This document shows positions 3,907 through 31,454 of a stretch of DNA of 64,000 bases, in pieces. Position numbers and translations under genes: made by a program. Positions within the stretch are counted from its first letter, which is position 1. Every line of letters starts with the position of its first letter. This stretch comes from a virus. The notes beneath the pieces are model-generated. The model was not told the DNA's origin, did no database searches, and worked only from the letters and a program-made list of their open reading frames with translations. The stretch covers positions 29,734 to 93,733 of IMG/VR virus record IMGVR_UViG_3300028388_001808. One strand, given 5' to 3'.

Positions 3907-4614
3907 TTATTGAATAGATAATTGATAGTTAGCTTGTTTTACTTGGTAATCAGGCATTTGCAAATCACCAGATAACAATAACGCTGCCAGTCTTACGATC
4001 TCTATATGCGTATGATCAGGCAAATCGCAATCTTGACTTCCAGTTAAAACAACTCCGCCTCCCGTTGTATACGTACCATCGCCATAGTCTTGAGCGTTGT
4101 GTATGTATGCAGGTTGTTTGAGATATGTCAATCTGGTAGTACTCACGATGAATGATCCATTGTGTAAAAAACTCAACCCTTTATCAGTAAGTCTTACATT
4201 CAGGACCTGCCAGTTAAAGTTAGATACACTAAGTTCATCATTTTCATCGTCGTCAAGATCAACATACGTACAAAGTACATTCTTTGTACACTCTCCTTTC
4301 TTTATGTCTGACCTGCATTTTGCGTAAAATAAAAAATCTTCAGGCAGCGTCAGCGTAGAAGAAAGACCGTCAGAATCAGGAATGGGAGTACTATTGTACT
4401 CCCTTACCAGTGTTCGTATATCGTGGATACTTCTTCCAGAAGATTCGTAACCAAGTTGCCTAGCTATTCTAGGCTGCGTTACGAATTTCACAAAAGTAAT
4501 GACCGCATCATTCAAGGCAGAATCCAGTGCAGGAATCCTAAGATTCTCATACTTTCTGGAATCAACTTTGTTCAGTACAGAACGTAAACGAACGATCATT
4601 TCTCGTGCTGTCAT
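3907..4614 (-). CDS. crAss-like tail ring/neck protein
   Basis: MTAREM...LNKVDS start and CDLPDHTHIEIVRLA end, typical of crAss ring proteins; synteny. Confidence 0.65.
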   Translation of the reverse strand: MTAREMIVRLRSVLNKVDSRKYENLRIPALDSALNDAVITFVKFVTQPRIARQLGYESSGRSIHDIRTLVREYNSTPIPDSDGLSSTLTLPEDFLFYAKCRSDIKKGECTKNVLCTYVDLDDDENDELSVSNFNWQVLNVRLTDKGLSFLHNGSFIVSTTRLTYLKQPAYIHNAQDYGDGTYTTGGGVVLTGSQDCDLPDHTHIEIVRLAALLLSGDLQMPDYQVKQANYQLSIQ

Positions 4615-5687: not shown

Positions 5688-7142
5688 TTACGAATTACGT
5701 TGCAGAATCAATTCACCACAACGGCTCGTATCTTCGATATGTACACCACAGCGATCAACTACGTGCATTTCGTAGTAGTCACCACTATGCGACATGCCTT
5801 TGTTGTTTACAGGTCCATAAGGAGTCTGCAAACCATGTACGTAACCGAGTTTGAATTCATTCTTTTTCTTCATGAGTTTCACGTTGCTCGAAACACCCTC
5901 ACCAGAGAAGTCGAGGAACGTATAACGCATGGATTCAGTCGGATAACCCGTAACCGGATCAATTTCAAAGTTGATTTCCCGATCATCATACAGAGGCAGG
6001 TGAATCAGTCGCAGAGACGAACCATTAGCCATTTTGTATTTGATGAACTGGAAGCCGTAACTCTTGGCATTGGTGTGGTACGGAGACTTATCATCCTGGA
6101 TGAAGTAGCTGTCTACGGTGATGAAACCTTTCTTCGAGAGTTCATCAGTGATGGCACGATGGAATTGAATCATACCGTATTCACCCGTAAAGGCTACCAT
6201 TTCACGCTTCGAACCGGGAGATACGCGATTGTAGAATACATCCATGAGGTATTCTTCGATCAGACGAGCCGTCAGGTGGCTGTAGCGGTGGATGTGTGAT
6301 TTTTCAAGAAGTTCCTGAACACCAGGACCGGAGTAGATCGGACGACCGTTTGCACCAAGTACAGTAGACGTACTGCGGCTGTACCAGTAACCCCTTTCGA
6401 GTTCACGATACCATTGTTCCCAGTATTCTACTTCAGCATACTTGACCCACGTATCGTGCATCTTTCCTTTGCTGTCAGGAATCTTCACAGCGAGTACTTC
6501 GTTTGCAGCATCACCAGTTACCTGATACTCCTTACGATAGCGCGACATGCGGCTACCAAGAGTCATCGGCAGACTGTACTGAGTGCTACCAGACTGTTGA
6601 CCAGCTTCTTCATACTGGCTGAACAGTTTAGCCCACTGCGTACCTGCTTTGAAGTACTTGAGAGGAATGTAAAAGTCGATTGCATCGTTCATCGGACGGA
6701 CTTTGTAAATCCAGCCGTTTCCATGACGACGCGGATGGTCCTGAATACGGACCTGATACTTTTTGTCGGAAGTACCTGGGTGCATGATATCACCTGGCTT
6801 GTACCAGTTGGTATCCCACTTCATTTCGATAACGGTACGACCCACACCGGGTTGCGTTACTCCAGCAGGAGTAATATCTTCCAGAATCACTGCGGGACGA
6901 GTGTTTGCTGTACGCAAATCCCACTCCCAATGACTCTTACCGATAGTCTCCATTTTGCCTGTCATGCCCAATACAGCAGATAGCGGATTGTCGCTATAAC
7001 GGTACGCAGTGAAAAGCTTCATCATCGTACCCTGCAATCGTTCAGGCTTGGCAATCAGAGCCGCCCCAAGGTGGTTCATTTCCGTCATGTTAGCGTGCCA
7101 AGGCATCTTACGAATGACGAGATTTGATTGAACAGCAGCCAT
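5688..7142 (-). CDS. Major capsid protein (crAss-like)
   Basis: 484 aa; TEMNHLG and GRPIYSGPG motifs; terminase-portal-scaffold-MCP order; strong codon bias. Confidence 0.85.
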   Translation of the reverse strand: MAAVQSNLVIRKMPWHANMTEMNHLGAALIAKPERLQGTMMKLFTAYRYSDNPLSAVLGMTGKMETIGKSHWEWDLRTANTRPAVILEDITPAGVTQPGVGRTVIEMKWDTNWYKPGDIMHPGTSDKKYQVRIQDHPRRHGNGWIYKVRPMNDAIDFYIPLKYFKAGTQWAKLFSQYEEAGQQSGSTQYSLPMTLGSRMSRYRKEYQVTGDAANEVLAVKIPDSKGKMHDTWVKYAEVEYWEQWYRELERGYWYSRSTSTVLGANGRPIYSGPGVQELLEKSHIHRYSHLTARLIEEYLMDVFYNRVSPGSKREMVAFTGEYGMIQFHRAITDELSKKGFITVDSYFIQDDKSPYHTNAKSYGFQFIKYKMANGSSLRLIHLPLYDDREINFEIDPVTGYPTESMRYTFLDFSGEGVSSNVKLMKKKNEFKLGYVHGLQTPYGPVNNKGMSHSGDYYEMHVVDRCGVHIEDTSRCGELILQRNS

Positions 7143-25195: not shown

Positions 25196-25271
25196 GTCAG
25201 TGAGTCACCGATTGGTAAGGTGGCAGGGGTAAATCCCCCTGTTGTAGTCGGTTCGAATCCGATCACTGGCA
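25196..25271 (+). ncRNA. tRNA-like element / pseudo-tRNA with no valid anticodon loop
   Basis: Acceptor GTCAGTG/CACTGGC, D arm with TGG, T arm GTCGG-TTCGAAT-CCGAT; anticodon arm CAGGGG-TAAATC-CCCCTG has a 6-nt loop. Confidence 0.65.
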
Positions 25272-27668: not shown

Positions 27669-27737
27669 ATGTCCCTCTTAGAACCTAAAACTTTAGACGT
27701 TTTTTTGGTTAAACTGGCTAAGTTGTCAGAGGGACAT
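27669..27737 (+). ncRNA. Y-RNA-like unit 1 (shared helix plus a minimal anticodon-like hairpin, TTTTGGT loop)
   Basis: Closing stem ATGTCCCTCT/AGAGGGACAT; CTTAGAAC...GTTGTCAG motif. Confidence 0.7.
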
Positions 27738-27747
27738 TTTAAAAAGC

Positions 27748-27839
27748 AAGATACAGCGCAACGTGATGGCAAGAGCCTTTCTTTTAGACGAAAGGGAAGC
27801 GCAAGGCTCTTTAGGGTAAATCGTGGCCCTCTGTATCTT
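27748..27839 (+). ncRNA. Structured RNA unit lacking the shared motif
   Basis: Closing stem AAGATACAG/CTGTATCTT with internal GAGCCTT/AAGGCTC and AGGGT/GCCCT hairpins. Confidence 0.5.
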
Positions 27840-27844
27840 TTTTA

Positions 27845-27963
27845 GGGGAGGTTGAAATGTTGGTCTTAGAGACAGAGAGGTGAATCCTCTCTTAGAACTA
27901 AACTAAAACTTTCAAGTACACTCATAATGTATCCTAACGTAGGTTCGATTCCTACCCTCCCCA
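27845..27963 (+). ncRNA. Unit 2: tRNA(CAT)-like RNA with the shared helix inserted in the D arm
   Basis: Acceptor GGGGAGG/CCTCCCC; T arm GTAGG-TTCGATT-CCTAC; anticodon arm GTACA-CTCATAA-TGTAT; TTGAAA/TTTCAA stem enclosing GACAGAGAGG-TGAAT-CCTCTCTTAGAAC. Confidence 0.75.
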
Positions 27964-27967
27964 CAAA

Positions 27968-28097
27968 AGTCCACTTAGAACTGTAACATAGTTACAAAAT
28001 TTGCAGGTTCAAATCCTGCTATAAGCGAAAGCTTATATGGCGGAAATGGTATACGCACTTCACTTAAAATGAAGCATTTTAAAACAGACAGTGGACT
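27968..28097 (+). ncRNA. Unit 3: circularly permuted tRNA-Leu(TAA)-like RNA opened at the variable arm
   Basis: AGTCCACT/AGTGGACT stem plus motif; order is T arm, acceptor TATAAGC-GAAA-GCTTATA, D arm, anticodon arm CTTCA-CTTAAAA-TGAAG. Confidence 0.8.
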
Positions 28098-28166
28098 AAG
28101 ACAAACGTAGGCGGAAGTCTAGCCCGTAGAAGGTAACTACAAATCAAATCCCTTCCGCTGAACGTA

Positions 28167-28215
28167 GGAACCCCCTTAGTATCATGTACGCATGGTGTCT
28201 TAGTCAGGGGGTTCC
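28167..28215 (+). ncRNA. Unit 4: minimal variant (CTTAGTAT...TAGTCAG)
   Basis: 10-bp stem GGAACCCCCT/AGGGGGTTCC; inner CATG-TACG-CATG hairpin. Confidence 0.6.
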
Positions 28216-28225
28216 AAAGAAAAAA

Positions 28226-28326
28226 CGTCTCGCTTAGAACAAACAAAAGTTATAGGTTCGAGTCCTATATTTTCTCGATTTTGAGGAAATTAGCTTAATT
28301 GGTTAGAGCAAATAGGCAGCGAGACG
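28226..28326 (+). ncRNA. Unit 5: YrlA-like Y RNA (T arm - closed acceptor hairpin - D arm)
   Basis: CGTCTCGCT/AGCGAGACG stem plus motif; ATAGG-TTCGAGT-CCTAT; ATTTTCTC/GAGGAAAT; TAGCTTAATTGGTTAGAGC; no anticodon arm. Confidence 0.75.
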
Positions 28327-28470
28327 ACAAAAAGAGGGGCCAGCCTCCCAAATACCGATTCAAACAGGTAAGTGCTGGTCCCTCCTACTTCGATCAAAGA
28401 TTAGGGGGAGCCGATACGGTTGAACAAATCAAAAGGGGATTTTTTGATTCCGGCTCCTCCGACCTTATAA

Positions 28471-28540
28471 GGTCCACTTAGAACTAAAACTAAAAACACC
28501 AGACTTGTAAATCCGGCAACGTTTTAGCAGTCAGTGGACC
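28471..28540 (+). ncRNA. Unit 6: shared helix plus an anticodon-like hairpin (CTTGTAAA loop)
   Basis: GGTCCACT/AGTGGACC; CTAAAAC/GTTTTAG; CCAGA-CTTGTAAA-TCCGG. Confidence 0.7.
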
Positions 28541-28557
28541 AAACTTCTATCATAACC

Positions 28558-28663
28558 GTCTCTCTTAGAACCAAAAAAACTTTGTATAGCTCATTGTAGA
28601 GCATCAAATTTAGGTTTTGAAGGTTGCTGGGTCAAACCAGCTACAAAAGTTTGACAGAGAGAC
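28558..28663 (+). ncRNA. Unit 7: shared helix stacked on the acceptor end of a degenerate tRNA cloverleaf (TAG loop)
   Basis: GTCTCTCT/AGAGAGAC; TTTGTA/TACAAA; GCTC-ATTGTA-GAGC; TCAAA-TTTAGGT-TTTGA; GCTGG-GTCAAA-CCAGC. Confidence 0.7.
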
Positions 28664-28693
28664 AAGGGAGTGCTTCGGCACTCCTTATTTTTT
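28664..28693 (+). terminator. Intrinsic terminator closing the RNA array
   Basis: GGAGTGC-TTCG-GCACTCC followed by TTATTTTTT. Confidence 0.8.
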
Positions 28694-28704
28694 GTTTAAC
28701 CGCT

Positions 28705-29699: not shown

Positions 29700-31454
29700 A
29701 TGAAGAAAAGTACAGAGATACTGCTTCCTACAGGAGTAGATCAGAAAAAGCTGGCTGCGATGAGTGTAACGATCAACACCATCAAAAAATCAGCAAAAGA
29801 ACCCAACGAGCAGTTGGTCTATGACCAGTTGACAAGACTTATTGGGGGGACTACTGATGAAGAGAAGACTTTACTGCTCCGCAACCTGTTCCAGATCATA
29901 GATCGTGAATCCGGAAAAGAGCTGGGTTATATCTCTCGAATCATTATCCGGTGGATAGAACACTACATGCCGGAATGGTTCTATGCGAACCTTTGGACAG
30001 TACCGTATTTCGTCAAGTGGGAGTACCTCTGGTACAACCAGATTCGGACTACCAAAAAGTCCAGCCACAAGCGACCTGCAAAGGTTGAAAAGACAGAACT
30101 GTCTGATTTCGACTATGAAGCAATCGCCAAGTTTGTTGCGGATTACATCCGTAGCAAAGAGGACAAAGGTCTTCTGGCGAAGTGGTTGCCGAAATACCGT
30201 AAAACAAAGCGGTGGCGTAAGAAGGTTTTAAAGGACGGTACAGTGAAACGCTGGACTACGAATCTGCTGCCTTCCACACAGTCGGTTGTGAATGTAAACA
30301 ACCACTTCATCAACCTCATCTGTGAGGAAATGGGGTGGACTGTTTCTGATTACGCCAACTGGAGAAAGGAAAATCAGCGCACCATCGAACAACAGGTGTC
30401 AAAAGGAGCTGCCTTTGACGCTTTGCCGGAAGCTACAATCAAGGACCATTTCGACAAAATGGCTACCCATGCCAGATTCAGAGTGGAGAAATCCATGAAG
30501 AATACGGATAAGTGGAAAAGAGCTTCCCAGGTATTCAACGCCTGGAAAGAAGATGAAACACGAGTAGCAGAGAAAATCCGTACCGCCCTGTCGAAAGGCG
30601 ATGAAGAAGGAGCAAAACTCCTTCGAAAAGCTTCCAAGGCGAAAACCGGAGGTGGACTTCAGACCTATGATCTGCTTTATAAGCTAATGAAAGAGAATGA
30701 CATTTCCACAGCAAACAACCTGCATAGCAACCTTATGGTTGACTTAATGGATAAACTAGACGGAGACGTCTATACCATTATCGACTGGTCGGGAAGTATG
30801 GAGAGCTATAACCAATCAGATATAGCGATGATTGACATTGCAAATACGCTGGCCGTGACATTCTCTACGATGCACAAAAACCCCATGTACAAAAACGAGT
30901 TCATGGTATTTGGTAAAGATGCAGTCGTCGTAGGAACCACTTCCAAATACAGCAAGACTGGTAAATTCCAGGTTGCCAAAGTGGAAGAAAGGAAAAAAGA
31001 ACCGACAATCGATGCCAAATGGACGTTTGAGCAGAACCTTCGCAGGATGAGAGAGGCCCGCAGAGGTATGGATCAGTGGAGTTTGGTGTCTGCAACCAAC
31101 ATGGGTGCTTGCTTCGAGCATTTCATCCAGTTGGTGAAAGACGGACACTGCACGCCGGAGGAACTACCTGTTGCTCTTCTTTTCATTACCGACGAAGAGA
31201 ACAACATGGGTAAACACCCTACAGAGTGCATGGCTGATGCCGCACAGATTGGCTGGTATCCTCTGGTCATCTGGTGGGGACTCCGCAGTAACCGGATGTC
31301 TAGCATCCGCTGCGAGAATTTCTTGCCTGTAACAGGCTTTGCGGAAAACGTACTGAGTGAAGTACTGACTTTCTTGCGTAACGGAGTTATTCTTCCCGGA
31401 GCGGAACTGCTGGCGGTGAACGATAATCCCCGCTATAAGGATATTAAATACTGA
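29700..31454 (+). CDS. TROVE/DUF2828-like + VWA protein (Ro60/Rsr-like RNA-binding protein)
   Basis: Helical N-terminal region with LFQIIDR..G and LLAKWLPK; VWA MIDAS IIDWSGSM, ATNM and LFITDEE; C-terminal GF.ENV; size about that of Ro60. Confidence 0.75.
   Translation: MKKSTEILLPTGVDQKKLAAMSVTINTIKKSAKEPNEQLVYDQLTRLIGGTTDEEKTLLLRNLFQIIDRESGKELGYISRIIIRWIEHYMPEWFYANLWTVPYFVKWEYLWYNQIRTTKKSSHKRPAKVEKTELSDFDYEAIAKFVADYIRSKEDKGLLAKWLPKYRKTKRWRKKVLKDGTVKRWTTNLLPSTQSVVNVNNHFINLICEEMGWTVSDYANWRKENQRTIEQQVSKGAAFDALPEATIKDHFDKMATHARFRVEKSMKNTDKWKRASQVFNAWKEDETRVAEKIRTALSKGDEEGAKLLRKASKAKTGGGLQTYDLLYKLMKENDISTANNLHSNLMVDLMDKLDGDVYTIIDWSGSMESYNQSDIAMIDIANTLAVTFSTMHKNPMYKNEFMVFGKDAVVVGTTSKYSKTGKFQVAKVEERKKEPTIDAKWTFEQNLRRMREARRGMDQWSLVSATNMGACFEHFIQLVKDGHCTPEELPVALLFITDEENNMGKHPTECMADAAQIGWYPLVIWWGLRSNRMSSIRCENFLPVTGFAENVLSEVLTFLRNGVILPGAELLAVNDNPRYKDIKY

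What the first reader, a model, noticed from the sequence alone, without database searches (positions are those of the whole stretch)
27968..28097. Unit 3: circularly permuted tRNA-Leu(UAA) with a GAAA-sealed acceptor stem
Seen: T arm (28003-19), 3' acceptor strand, GAAA, 5' acceptor strand (28031-37), Leu-type D arm and intact anticodon arm (TAA at 28065-67). The molecule is opened at the variable-arm position, where the shared helix attaches. Known: YrlA is permuted but lacks the anticodon arm; permuted tRNA genes that mature to real tRNAs are known from algae and archaea. Inference: an unchargeable mimic exposing a native anticodon loop, or a precursor that matures if the GAAA loop is cut.
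Basis: partly seen in the sequence, partly recalled or inferred. Interest (0 to 1): 0.85.

Follow-up and report, generated by a model that had tools for sequence, protein, structure and literature searches.

The report
Permuted tRNA-Leu mimic on Ro60-type handle
This 130-base phage RNA gene is a tRNA-Leu(UAA) look-alike with its two halves swapped and its amino-acid-accepting end sealed by a loop. It hangs from a conserved "handle" shared by neighbouring RNAs beside a hidden Ro60-like protein gene, so it is most likely a new kind of Y-RNA-type tRNA mimic, not a working tRNA.

Summary
Window 27968-28097 (+) reads: handle strand, UAGAAC, a small hairpin, T arm, a 7-bp acceptor stem capped by GAAA, a 3-bp D arm, a 5-bp anticodon stem with loop CUUAAAA, an A-rich linker, then the second handle strand.

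With the handle removed and the order restored, ARAGORN calls it tRNA-Leu(UAA). As it stands, ARAGORN calls nothing.

Seven more units with the same order and a retained anticodon arm were found on independent viral contigs. All have Leu-UAA or Ser-UGA loops, although the search pattern allowed only CUUNAAA. Across the eight units, 18 of 20 base pairs show compensatory changes, which rules out chance and assembly error.

Seven of the eight records encode a Ro60-type protein: three canonical TROVE and four of the DUF2828-related kind. The window's copy (29700-31454) has no Pfam hit but folds like Ro60 (Z 12.8-15.8).

Three phages also carry an ordinary tRNA with the same anticodon. The window's complete genome encodes no RNA ligase.

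Best reading: a Y-RNA-like tRNA mimic docked by its handle to the Ro60-like protein. It differs from YrlA in keeping the anticodon arm and being anchored in the variable region. RNase P opening of the cap, as happens in M. smegmatis YrlA, remains possible.

The scan had noted this array before, but only on this same genome.

The parts
27968..27975 (+). Handle, 5' strand (AGUCCACU); pairs with 28090-28097
   Evidence: A perfect 8-bp helix. The same stem-ends-in-CU / starts-with-AG design occurs in five more units of the window and in 18 units in L122-L129, each with a different stem sequence.
27976..27981 (+). Conserved handle flank UAGAAC
   Evidence: All six CTTAGAAC copies in the 64-kb window lie at 27677-28571 on the + strand. 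The flank is UAGAA(N) in relatives.
27982..27996 (+). Small hairpin (6 bp, loop AUA) at the place of the class II variable arm
   Evidence: It appears in the MFE fold. ARAGORN uses it as the long variable arm after re-permutation.
27997..28002 (+). Linker ending in U at tRNA position 48
   Evidence: The base before the T stem is U in all 8 units, which fits an A15:U48 Levitt pair.
28003..28019 (+). T arm (5 bp, loop UUCAAAU)
   Evidence: Four of its 5 pairs covary among the 8 units.
28020..28037 (+). Acceptor-like stem: 3' strand, GAAA cap (28027-28030), 5' strand; 7 bp, with no free ends
   Evidence: All 7 pairs covary. The cap loops of the homologues are 4-9 nt long and unrelated in sequence.
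28038..28057 (+). U8 G9, D arm (3-bp stem, 11-nt loop with GG), A26
   Evidence: The sequence is nearly the same as the D arm of ordinary phage tRNA-Leu(UAA) genes seen.
28058..28074 (+). Anticodon arm: 5-bp stem, loop CUUAAAA (UAA at 28065-28067)
   Evidence: All 5 pairs covary across 8 different stem sequences, and the loop is CUU(A/G)AAA in every unit. The loop was fixed by the search pattern.
28075..28089 (+). A-rich single-stranded linker ending in C before the handle
   Evidence: Linkers of 11-16 nt and A-rich composition occur in all 8 units.
28090..28097 (+). Handle, 3' strand (AGUGGACU)
27669..28663 (+). The array this unit belongs to: seven handle units carrying different cargo (U1 27669-27737, U2 27845-27963, U3, U4 28167-28215, U5 28226-28326, U6 28471-28540, U7 28558-28663)
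   Evidence: U5 gives a weak YrlA match (24.8 bits, cut-off 69). U7 scores 51 bits and U2 34 bits with the tRNA model.
28665..28695 (+). Intrinsic terminator-like hairpin plus U tract that closes the array
   Evidence: 9-bp stem, UUCG loop, T run.
29700..31454 (+). Ro60-like protein gene (584 aa): helical ring plus vWA domain with a MIDAS motif. Proposed partner of the handle.
   Evidence: No Pfam or PHROG hit. There are 59 distant relatives, with invariant D362xS364xS366..T466..D498, and some carry DUF2828 + DUF7788 + VWA. The AlphaFold model has pLDDT 84. The top matches are all Ro60: Foldseek E 8e-7 to 2e-4, and VIA-align Z 12.8-15.8 over about 400 residues spanning both domains, against Z of 11 or less for vWA-only hits.

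Best explanation
Unit 3 is a Y-RNA-type non-coding RNA whose cargo is a circularly permuted copy of a class II tRNA, tRNA-Leu(UAA).

What is shown:
- It has every tRNA helix and the key tertiary-pair positions.
- The acceptor end is closed by a GAAA loop.
- The RNA's own 5' and 3' ends lie in the variable region, where they pair into an 8-bp handle flanked by UAGAAC and C.
- The design is conserved, with covariation, in eight phage lineages.
- It travels with Ro60-type genes.

What is inferred:
- The handle docks on the Ro60-like ring protein encoded 1.6 kb downstream, as the stem of a Y RNA docks on Ro60.
- The L-shaped tRNA body, with elbow, 12-bp acceptor/T stack and a native anticodon loop, is held out as the effector module.
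- That module recruits, occupies or is acted on by host proteins that recognise tRNA-Leu/Ser-type tRNAs. These could be modification or processing enzymes, exonuclease partners as in Ro60-Y RNA-PNPase particles, or anticodon-directed nucleases.
- With no free CCA end it cannot be charged as made, so it is a mimic and not a decoder.

It probably arose from a tandem tRNA-Leu transcript, taking the T arm from copy 1 and the D and anticodon arms from copy 2. This is the origin already proposed for YrlA.
For: - Anatomy and the re-permutation test.
- Eight independent units have the same order. 18 of 20 pairs show compensatory change and 96.9% of cells are paired, against 31-37% in slid registers. 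U48 is invariant.
- None of the 118 unrelated phage tRNA loci holds such a unit once tandem tRNAs are removed.
- The partner gene folds like Ro60.
- The handle recurs next to homologues at about 30% identity: 18 units in 0.18 Mb, against 10 in 2.1 Mb of control loci that were themselves selected for the CTTAGAA motif.
- The flank motif tracks the protein clade. It is UAGAAC in the window clade, UAGAAU/A in L122-L129, AUACAGCAA in the Pfam-visible DUF2828 clade (L137, Klebsiella phage KP2025), and UUAC(U/A)UCG beside canonical TROVE genes (L159, L161, L144).
- Seven of the eight records encode a Ro60-type protein.
- Three phages carry both the permuted unit and an ordinary tRNA with the same anticodon (G003 and G004 Leu-UAA, G005 Ser-UGA).
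- The bases at the discriminator position (G, A, U, A, U, G, U, G) do not track Leu or Ser identity.
- There is precedent. YrlA RNAs are loop-capped permuted tRNA mimics bound by Ro60, and phage Ro60 binds phage Y-like RNAs and host PNPase (PMC4201824, 10.1101/312249, PMC12135203).
Against: - There is no binding, expression or processing data. No sequencing run could be listed.
- The handle has neither the GNCGAA motif nor the bulged helix of known Ro60 sites.
- The protein is Ro60-like by predicted fold only.
- In G005 the unit lies 20 kb from the TROVE gene. In L168's incomplete record no Ro60-type gene was found.
- Two tRNA-rich phages (G002, G007) lack an ordinary Ser(UGA) tRNA while carrying the permuted one. 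The window's phage likewise has no ordinary Leu(UAA). This would also fit a decoding role.
- The effector that reads the tRNA body is unknown.
- The eight units were found with a pattern that fixed the T loop, D loop and CUUNAAA, so the 'class II only' rule is not an unbiased result.
Confidence: 0.6

Rival explanations
1. Two-piece working tRNA. RNase P cuts 5' of G28031 in the cap, the 3' tail is trimmed and CCA is added. The two halves stay together through the 7-bp acceptor stem, the tertiary core and the 8-bp handle, which then acts as an oversized, open variable arm. The result is a chargeable tRNA-Leu(UAA), comparable to two-piece tmRNA made from permuted genes. It may or may not remain bound to the Ro60-like protein.
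For: - The acceptor stem is exactly 7 bp, the feature that makes M. smegmatis YrlA an RNase P substrate with CCA addition in vivo. YrlAs with shorter stems are not cut (PMC4201824).
- All eight units can form 7 bp.
- L161's cap reads U-CCA-AAAUC, as in a tRNA gene with an encoded CCA.
- The window's complete genome has Leu(UAG) but no ordinary Leu(UAA). G002 and G007 lack an ordinary Ser(UGA).
- No ligase is needed for this route.
Against: - The 7-bp length was partly imposed by my descriptor.
- A GNRA tetraloop leaves no flexible leader for RNase P.
- The position-73 base is G in U3, whereas Leu identity in E. coli-type systems needs A73 (my own knowledge). These bases are inconsistent across units.
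- A CCA occurs in only 1 of 8 caps, roughly what chance would give.
- Three phages already have the ordinary isoacceptor.
- The handle with its conserved flanks and the A-rich linker have no role in a decoder.
Confidence: 0.2
2. The handle is not a protein-docking site. It is a processing or stability element, for example a double-strand RNase site or a clamp protecting the ends. It would cut the polycistronic array into units or protect them. U3 would then be a stable tRNA-shaped decoy acting on its own, and the Ro60-like gene would be only a neighbour.
For: - The units are packed 4-90 nt apart in what looks like one transcript ending at the terminator at 28665-28695.
- In relatives the handle also encloses high-scoring ordinary tRNAs, such as Ile-GAU in L127 and Gly-UCC in L125, where it resembles a paired leader and trailer.
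- One unit is 20 kb from its TROVE gene.
Against: - The single-stranded flank motif is conserved while the stem sequence is free, as expected for sequence-specific protein recognition.
- The motif subtype changes with the protein clade.
- Handles are about 20-fold enriched next to the protein gene.
Confidence: 0.12
3. True permuted tRNA gene of the algal/archaeal type. The handle is excised, the ends are ligated in the variable region to give a circle, and the cap is then opened, producing a normal one-piece tRNA-Leu(UAA).
For: The gene order is the same as in Cyanidioschyzon permuted tRNA genes. Wang et al. raised this possibility for YrlA (10.1101/312249).
Against: - The complete phage genome has no RtcB, T4 Rnl1 or Rnl2-type ligase.
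- Bacteria are not known to have the splicing endonuclease (stated in 10.1101/312249).
- The handle is an uninterrupted 8-bp helix with no bulge-helix-bulge.
- The same handle is shared by units that have no tRNA to mature (U1, U4, U6).
Confidence: 0.03
4. Decayed relic of a tandem tRNA duplication or an assembly rearrangement, with no function.
For: No reads could be laid on the window. The unit could have arisen by tandem duplication.
Against: - The same permuted order occurs on eight contigs from different metagenomes, with compensatory changes in every helix and no decay of the loops.
- The handle is a perfect helix and the fold z-score is -5.
Confidence: 0.02

Closest known systems
YrlA-type bacterial and phage Y RNAs (Rfam RF02553; Chen et al. 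2014, PMC4201824; Wang et al. 2018, bioRxiv 10.1101/312249)
   Same: - The T arm lies 5' of the D arm.
- The acceptor stem is closed by a loop.
- The tRNA tertiary positions are kept.
- The 5' and 3' ends pair into a stem that carries the protein-binding module.
- It is encoded next to a Ro60-type gene, often with several Y RNAs per locus.
- It probably derives from a dimeric tRNA transcript.
   Different: - YrlA lacks the anticodon loop, and its Ro60 module continues from the anticodon stem. U3 keeps a full anticodon arm and is anchored in the variable region instead.
- The flank is UAGAAC, not GNCGAAN0-1G.
- The Rfam model gives no hit on U3 even at E up to 10.
- The partner is invisible to Pfam's TROVE model.
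Deinococcus radiodurans Yrn1
   Same: It is a Y RNA with a T arm and a possible 5-bp 'anticodon arm', bound by Ro60 (Rsr) (PMC4201824).
   Different: Yrn1 has a 6-nt loop, no clear D arm, no variable arm and no acceptor-like stem. U3 has all four arms and a canonical 7-nt loop with U33 and a real Leu anticodon.
Circularly permuted tRNA genes of Cyanidioschyzon merolae and some archaea
   Same: The 3' half is encoded upstream of the 5' half, the acceptor strands are joined by a short linker, and the ends pair.
   Different: Those genes mature through a circular intermediate made by the splicing endonuclease and a ligase, using a bulge-helix-bulge. Neither the motif nor a ligase is found here. 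The handle is shared with non-tRNA units and is linked to a Ro60-like gene.
Two-piece tmRNA from permuted ssrA genes; RNase P-cut M. smegmatis YrlA
   Same: They are permuted tRNA-like genes whose product can be opened at the acceptor end and function, or persist, as two paired pieces.
   Different: Opening is not shown for U3. tmRNA has no anticodon arm and is charged with alanine.
Phage-encoded tRNAs that counter host anticodon nucleases (my own knowledge of the phage-defence literature, not checked here)
   Same: The phage supplies extra copies of an anticodon arm that host defences may target.
   Different: Those are ordinary, chargeable tRNAs that replace cleaved ones. U3 is capped, permuted and tethered to a handle.

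Membership tests
YrlA (RF02553) | T arm 5' of D arm, with a loop-closed acceptor-like stem between them | tested here: met
YrlA (RF02553) | No anticodon loop; the Ro60-binding stem extends from the anticodon-stem position | tested here: not met
   U3 has a 5-bp anticodon stem and a 7-nt loop, supported by covariation in 8 units. The handle joins in the variable region.
YrlA (RF02553) | Conserved GNCGAAN0-1G motif in the 5' strand (PMC4201824) | tested here: not met
   The flank is UAGAAC. No GNCGAA is present in 27968-28002.
YrlA (RF02553) | Reaches the Rfam gathering score (69 bits) | tested here: not met
   There is no YrlA match on U3 at E up to 10. The only match in the array is unit 5 at 24.8 bits. 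No permuted unit with an anticodon arm in L123, L127, L137, L144, L159, L161 or L168 is hit at E up to 0.01.
YrlA (RF02553) | Encoded beside a Ro60/TROVE gene | tested here: met
   The gene at 29700-31454 is Ro60-like by fold but not by Pfam. Counterpart units in L159 and L161 sit beside Pfam-TROVE genes.
YrlA (RF02553) | Bound by Ro60/Rsr in vivo | not testable with these tools
   Needs immunoprecipitation or EMSA.
Canonical tRNA (RF00005) | Cloverleaf in 5'-to-3' order with free, paired acceptor ends; reaches 29 bits | tested here: not met
   The native sequence gives only a partial 23.2-bit match at 28031-28113 and no ARAGORN call. The ends are capped by GAAA.
Canonical tRNA (RF00005) | All four arms, U8, G18G19, T-loop UUCRA, U33, purine 37, and a class II variable hairpin | tested here: met
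   After re-permutation ARAGORN calls tRNA-Leu(UAA). The positions are listed.
Permuted tRNA genes (algal/archaeal type) | 3' half upstream of 5' half in one transcript | tested here: met
Permuted tRNA genes (algal/archaeal type) | Bulge-helix-bulge at the paired ends, and a ligase for circularisation | tested here: not met
   The handle is an unbroken 8-bp helix. The complete genome has no RtcB, Rnl1 or Rnl2-type ligase. Host enzymes could not be examined.
Ro60/TROVE proteins (for the partner gene) | Helical-repeat ring followed by a vWA domain with MIDAS | tested here: met
   MIDAS DxSxS..T..D is invariant in 37 relatives. The top 10 structural matches are all Ro60: Z 12.8-15.8, rmsd 5.2-5.8 A, 337-412 residues aligned, spanning residues 16-582.
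Ro60/TROVE proteins (for the partner gene) | Match to Pfam TROVE (PF05731) | tested here: not met
   No Pfam family matches at E up to 1, and PF05731 is not found in G000. Distant relatives match DUF2828 and DUF7788 instead.

The most novel reading that the evidence does not exclude
Phages use a Ro60-like particle to display genuine anticodon arms on a common handle, including a whole capped tRNA-Leu(UAA) or tRNA-Ser(UGA) body. These would act as tethered baits for host tRNA-directed defences such as anticodon nucleases. The particle would soak up, sense or channel the attack, for instance by handing cleaved RNA to an exonuclease or repair enzyme recruited by the ring or its vWA domain. The permuted, variable-arm-anchored design would exist because it leaves the anticodon arm and elbow free while hiding both RNA ends.
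Probability: 0.15. Interest if true: 0.85.

Novelty: new variant of a known kind. Interest (0 to 1): 0.62.

Why it matters
Y RNAs that mimic tRNA are known, but what their tRNA-like part is for remains an open question. Every described YrlA lacks the anticodon loop.

This subclass keeps a native Leu or Ser anticodon arm and moves the anchor to the variable region. It is conserved beside both classical TROVE genes and a previously unrecognised Ro60-like family related to DUF2828. That narrows the hypotheses to partners that read the anticodon arm as well as the elbow.

It also gives a concrete, short RNA-protein pair to test, and cultured Klebsiella phages carry related handle RNAs beside their DUF2828 gene.

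Finally, it gives DUF2828-type proteins, so far unstudied in the literature I could search, a likely role as RNA-binding ring proteins.

Tried and rejected
- **blastn of the array against GenBank phages:** no match.
- **The search for related loci with the single protein:** nothing. The closer subset worked.
- **Pattern CTTAGAAC..GGTTCRANTCC in viral contigs:** it returned almost only ordinary tRNAs, because CUUAGAA is also a Leu(UAG) anticodon loop. That scan was wasted.
- **Covariance model R1 from U3 + L137:** it scores junctions of tandem ordinary tRNAs as high as true units, so bit score alone cannot be used. I replaced it with a strict descriptor plus an ARAGORN filter.
- **MAFFT alignments A3 and A6:** they misplace the capped acceptor hairpins. 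Pair counts were therefore made on a structural segmentation in a script, not with the count of structure pairs.
- **Sequencing runs:** none was listed and no RNA holder was listed. This is not evidence either way.
- **Complementary distribution with ordinary isoacceptors:** tested and found mixed, 3 co-occurring and 2-3 not, so it settles nothing alone.
- **PDB profile search by sequence:** it gave only weak matches to the vWA part.
- **Literature search for DUF2828:** it returned only unrelated plant and tardigrade papers.
- **Sim et al. 2020 review:** not held.

Full report
**Context**

The window is the right-hand 64 kb of a complete 93.7-kb IMG/VR phage genome with direct terminal repeats. 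An endolysin gene lies upstream of the finding, and DNA polymerase and helicase genes lie downstream.

Between them, on the + strand, is a gene-free stretch. It carries a run of small structured elements (27669-28663), a strong terminator-like hairpin (28665-28695) and then three ordinary tRNA genes: Met, Arg-UCU and Leu-UAG. All six copies of CTTAGAAC in the window fall inside this stretch on the + strand. Each follows a stem strand whose complement, starting with AG and preceded by C, lies 50-120 nt downstream. This is the "shared helix", or handle.

**Observation**

In order it contains:
- an 8-bp handle
- UAGAAC
- a 6-bp hairpin
- a T arm with loop UUCAAAU
- a 7-bp acceptor-like stem whose 3' strand comes first and which is capped by GAAA
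- U8 G9
- a 3-bp D stem whose loop contains GG
- A26
- a 5-bp anticodon stem with loop CUUAAAA (UAA at 28065-28067)
- a 15-nt A-rich linker
- the second handle strand

RNAfold finds all of these helices except the anticodon stem, with a z-score of -5.0. In place of the anticodon stem it draws an 8-bp A/U hairpin. That hairpin is only 0.5 kcal/mol better than the tRNA-like fold.

After cutting in the cap, joining through the variable region and dropping the handle, ARAGORN calls tRNA-Leu(UAA) with a long variable arm. The native order gives no call. Rfam's tRNA model sees only the 5' acceptor-D-anticodon part, at 23.2 bits.

**Partner protein**

Earlier notes of this scan on the same genome pointed to the 584-aa ORF at 29700-31454 as Ro60-like. 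I tested this independently.
- It has no Pfam or PHROG hit and only two close relatives among 5.8 billion clusters.
- An exhaustive HMMER search finds 59 distant relatives.
- Their alignment has an invariant DxSxS..T..D MIDAS motif. Some members carry Pfam DUF2828, DUF7788 and VWA.
- An AlphaFold model (pLDDT 84, pTM 0.77) matches Ro60 proteins first. Foldseek's top 12 are all Ro60 or TROVE at E 8e-7 to 2e-4.
- VIA-align gives Z 12.8-15.8 with 337-412 residues aligned across both domains for the Deinococcus, human, Xenopus and Thermus-phage proteins. vWA-only proteins reach Z 11 at most.

So the gene encodes a Ro60-like ring-plus-vWA protein that sequence profiles do not file under TROVE.

**The handle travels with this protein family**

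Eight viral loci encode relatives at about 30% identity. They contain 18 units of the form [7-12 bp stem ending CU] UAGAA(N) ... (U) [AG-stem']. The stems are unrelated in sequence, and most units lie within 1.5 kb upstream of the gene.

The density is about 20 times that in 118 control phage tRNA loci, even though those controls had been selected for the CTTAGAA motif.

The single-stranded flank changes with the protein clade:
- UAGAAC here
- UAGAAU/A in L122-L129
- AUACAGCAA beside Pfam-visible DUF2828 genes (L137 and the cultured Klebsiella phage KP2025)
- UUAC(U/A)UCG beside canonical TROVE genes

**Unit 3 is one of a conserved class**

Two of the related loci contain a unit of the same length and order, L127:3416-3545 and L123:9366-9488, with loop CUUGAAA (Ser-UGA type).

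A viral-contig scan for T loop, then D loop, then CUUNAAA returned 53 stretches. Most were junctions of tandem tRNAs. I applied a strict descriptor that requires the acceptor strands to pair as a capped hairpin, then removed anything overlapping an ARAGORN tRNA. Exactly eight distinct units remained: U3, L127, L123, L137, L168, L159 (= L131), L161 and L144. None came from the 118 control loci.

On a structural segmentation of the eight units:
- 18 of 20 base pairs carry compensatory double changes, and the other two never vary.
- 96.9% of cells are standard pairs, against 31-37% when the 3' partner is slid by 1-2 positions.
- All five anticodon-stem pairs covary, across eight different stems.
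- The base before the T stem is U in all eight.

The competing hairpin of U3 has no counterpart in the others, so the anticodon arm is the conserved structure. The cap loops are 4-9 nt long and unrelated in sequence.

This also disposes of the "assembly rearrangement" objection, because the same permuted order stands on eight contigs from different samples. One caveat applies. The pattern fixed the T loop, the D loop and CUUNAAA, so the finding that only the class II anticodons UAA and UGA occur is not an unbiased result.

**Genomic company of the eight units**

- Four records carry the DUF2828-related protein: the window, L127, L123 and L137.
- Three carry a Pfam-TROVE protein. In L159 and L161 it is adjacent. 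In L144's record it is 20 kb away.
- L168's incomplete provirus record shows neither.

Rfam's YrlA model recognises none of these units.

**Decoder or mimic?**

The evidence that favours a mimic:
- Three phages have both the permuted unit and an ordinary tRNA with the same anticodon: G003 and G004 with Leu-UAA, G005 with Ser-UGA.
- The bases at the discriminator position (G, A, U, A, U, G, U, G) do not follow Leu or Ser rules.
- The window's complete genome has no RtcB, T4 Rnl1 or Rnl2-type ligase, and the handle has no bulge-helix-bulge. Algal-type cut-and-join maturation is therefore unlikely.

The evidence that leaves a decoding role open:
- Two tRNA-rich phages (G002, G007) lack the ordinary Ser(UGA) copy. 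The window's phage has only four ordinary tRNAs and no Leu-UAA.
- M. smegmatis YrlA, the one YrlA with a 7-bp acceptor stem, is cut by RNase P and receives CCA in vivo while staying bound to Rsr (PMC4201824). U3 also has 7 bp.
- L161's cap even reads U-CCA-AAAUC.

Opening of the cap into a two-piece form therefore remains a live possibility. I put it at about 0.2 as the main function.

**Comparison with what is known**

[quoted passage not shown] They say it "lacks the anticodon loop", with the Ro60 module continuing from the anticodon stem, and they propose an origin from dimeric tRNA transcripts (10.1101/312249). A Thermus phage Ro60 binds two phage Y-like RNAs and host PNPase (PMC12135203).

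Unit 3 works like these RNAs but fails three defining YrlA features: it has an anticodon loop, it lacks the GNCGAA motif, and it does not score with the Rfam model. It also pairs with a protein family that is not recognised as TROVE.

I found nothing in the held literature on DUF2828 as an RNA-binding or Ro60-like protein, and nothing on Y RNAs that keep a full anticodon arm. I file it as a new variant of a known kind.

**Verdict**

Most likely, U3 is a handle-docked, Ro60-like-associated mimic of tRNA-Leu(UAA) that presents an intact anticodon arm and elbow (confidence about 0.6). What reads that arm is unknown. Binding and end-mapping experiments on this 130-nt RNA and its 584-aa neighbour would settle the main alternatives.

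Noticed in passing
L159:166-582: A full-length GOLLD RNA (Rfam RF02032, 277 bits) lies about 230 nt upstream of the permuted Ser-UGA-type unit (L159:814-931) and about 1 kb upstream of a TROVE gene (L159:1663-3234). This puts GOLLD, a tRNA mimic and Ro60 in one phage locus.
   Followed up: no
L183 (Klebsiella phage KP2025, PP919962.1) 6150-6650: Directly downstream of the annotated 'DUF2828 protein' CDS are unannotated repeats of [stem]-AUACAGCAA handles and two YrlA-type permuted units (T arm, capped acceptor, D arm, no anticodon arm) at 6378-6440 and 6519-6575. The record's 432-nt 'tRNA-Arg-TCT' overlapping the CDS start looks like an annotation artefact: ARAGORN places a normal 75-nt tRNA-Arg at 4536-4610.
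   Followed up: partly
window 25196-25271 (+): A weak tRNA-like element (Rfam tRNA 29.3 bits in the whole-genome search) has good acceptor, D and T arms but an odd anticodon loop (GUAAAUC). ARAGORN does not call it. It lies 2.4 kb upstream of the array, among small ORFs.
   Followed up: no
L161:3577-3691 (-): The cap of this permuted Leu-UAA-type unit reads U-CCA-AAAUC between the 3' and 5' acceptor strands, as in a tRNA gene with an encoded CCA and a short leader. It is the only one of the eight units with a CCA there.
   Followed up: partly
window 27677-28571 and the loci: The handle motif CUUAGAA is identical to a tRNA-Leu(UAG)-type anticodon loop (C32 U33 U34 A35 G36 A37 A38) preceded by its stem strand. 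This fits the handle itself deriving from an anticodon arm of a dimeric tRNA precursor. It also makes motif-only searches return ordinary tRNAs.
   Followed up: no
L127:3329-3411: Between two handle units, ARAGORN calls a tRNA with an enlarged anticodon loop ('taga', undetermined type). Rfam's tRNA model gives it 46.6 bits. It may be a four-base-anticodon or degenerate tRNA.
   Followed up: no
L128:8976-9048; L183:4143-4217; L187 and L185 (G005, G003 tRNA clusters): Several phages that carry the Ro60-like or TROVE systems also encode suppressor-type tRNAs: CUA in L128 and KP2025, UUA in G005, and UCA in G003. This hints at stop-codon recoding or suppression in these lineages.
   Followed up: no
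window 27748-27840, 28098-28166, 28330-28470: Self-contained structured elements without the UAGAAC handle are interleaved with the handle units. Examples are the closing stems AGAUACAG/CUGUAUCU and GCGGAAG/CUUCCGC. Their role (spacers, processing signals or a second RNA class) is open.
   Followed up: no
window 27963-27968: Unit 2's tRNA-like 3' end (…CCCCA) is separated from unit 3's handle by only four bases (CAAA). A tRNA 3'-end processing cut at unit 2 would therefore generate unit 3's 5' end.
   Followed up: no
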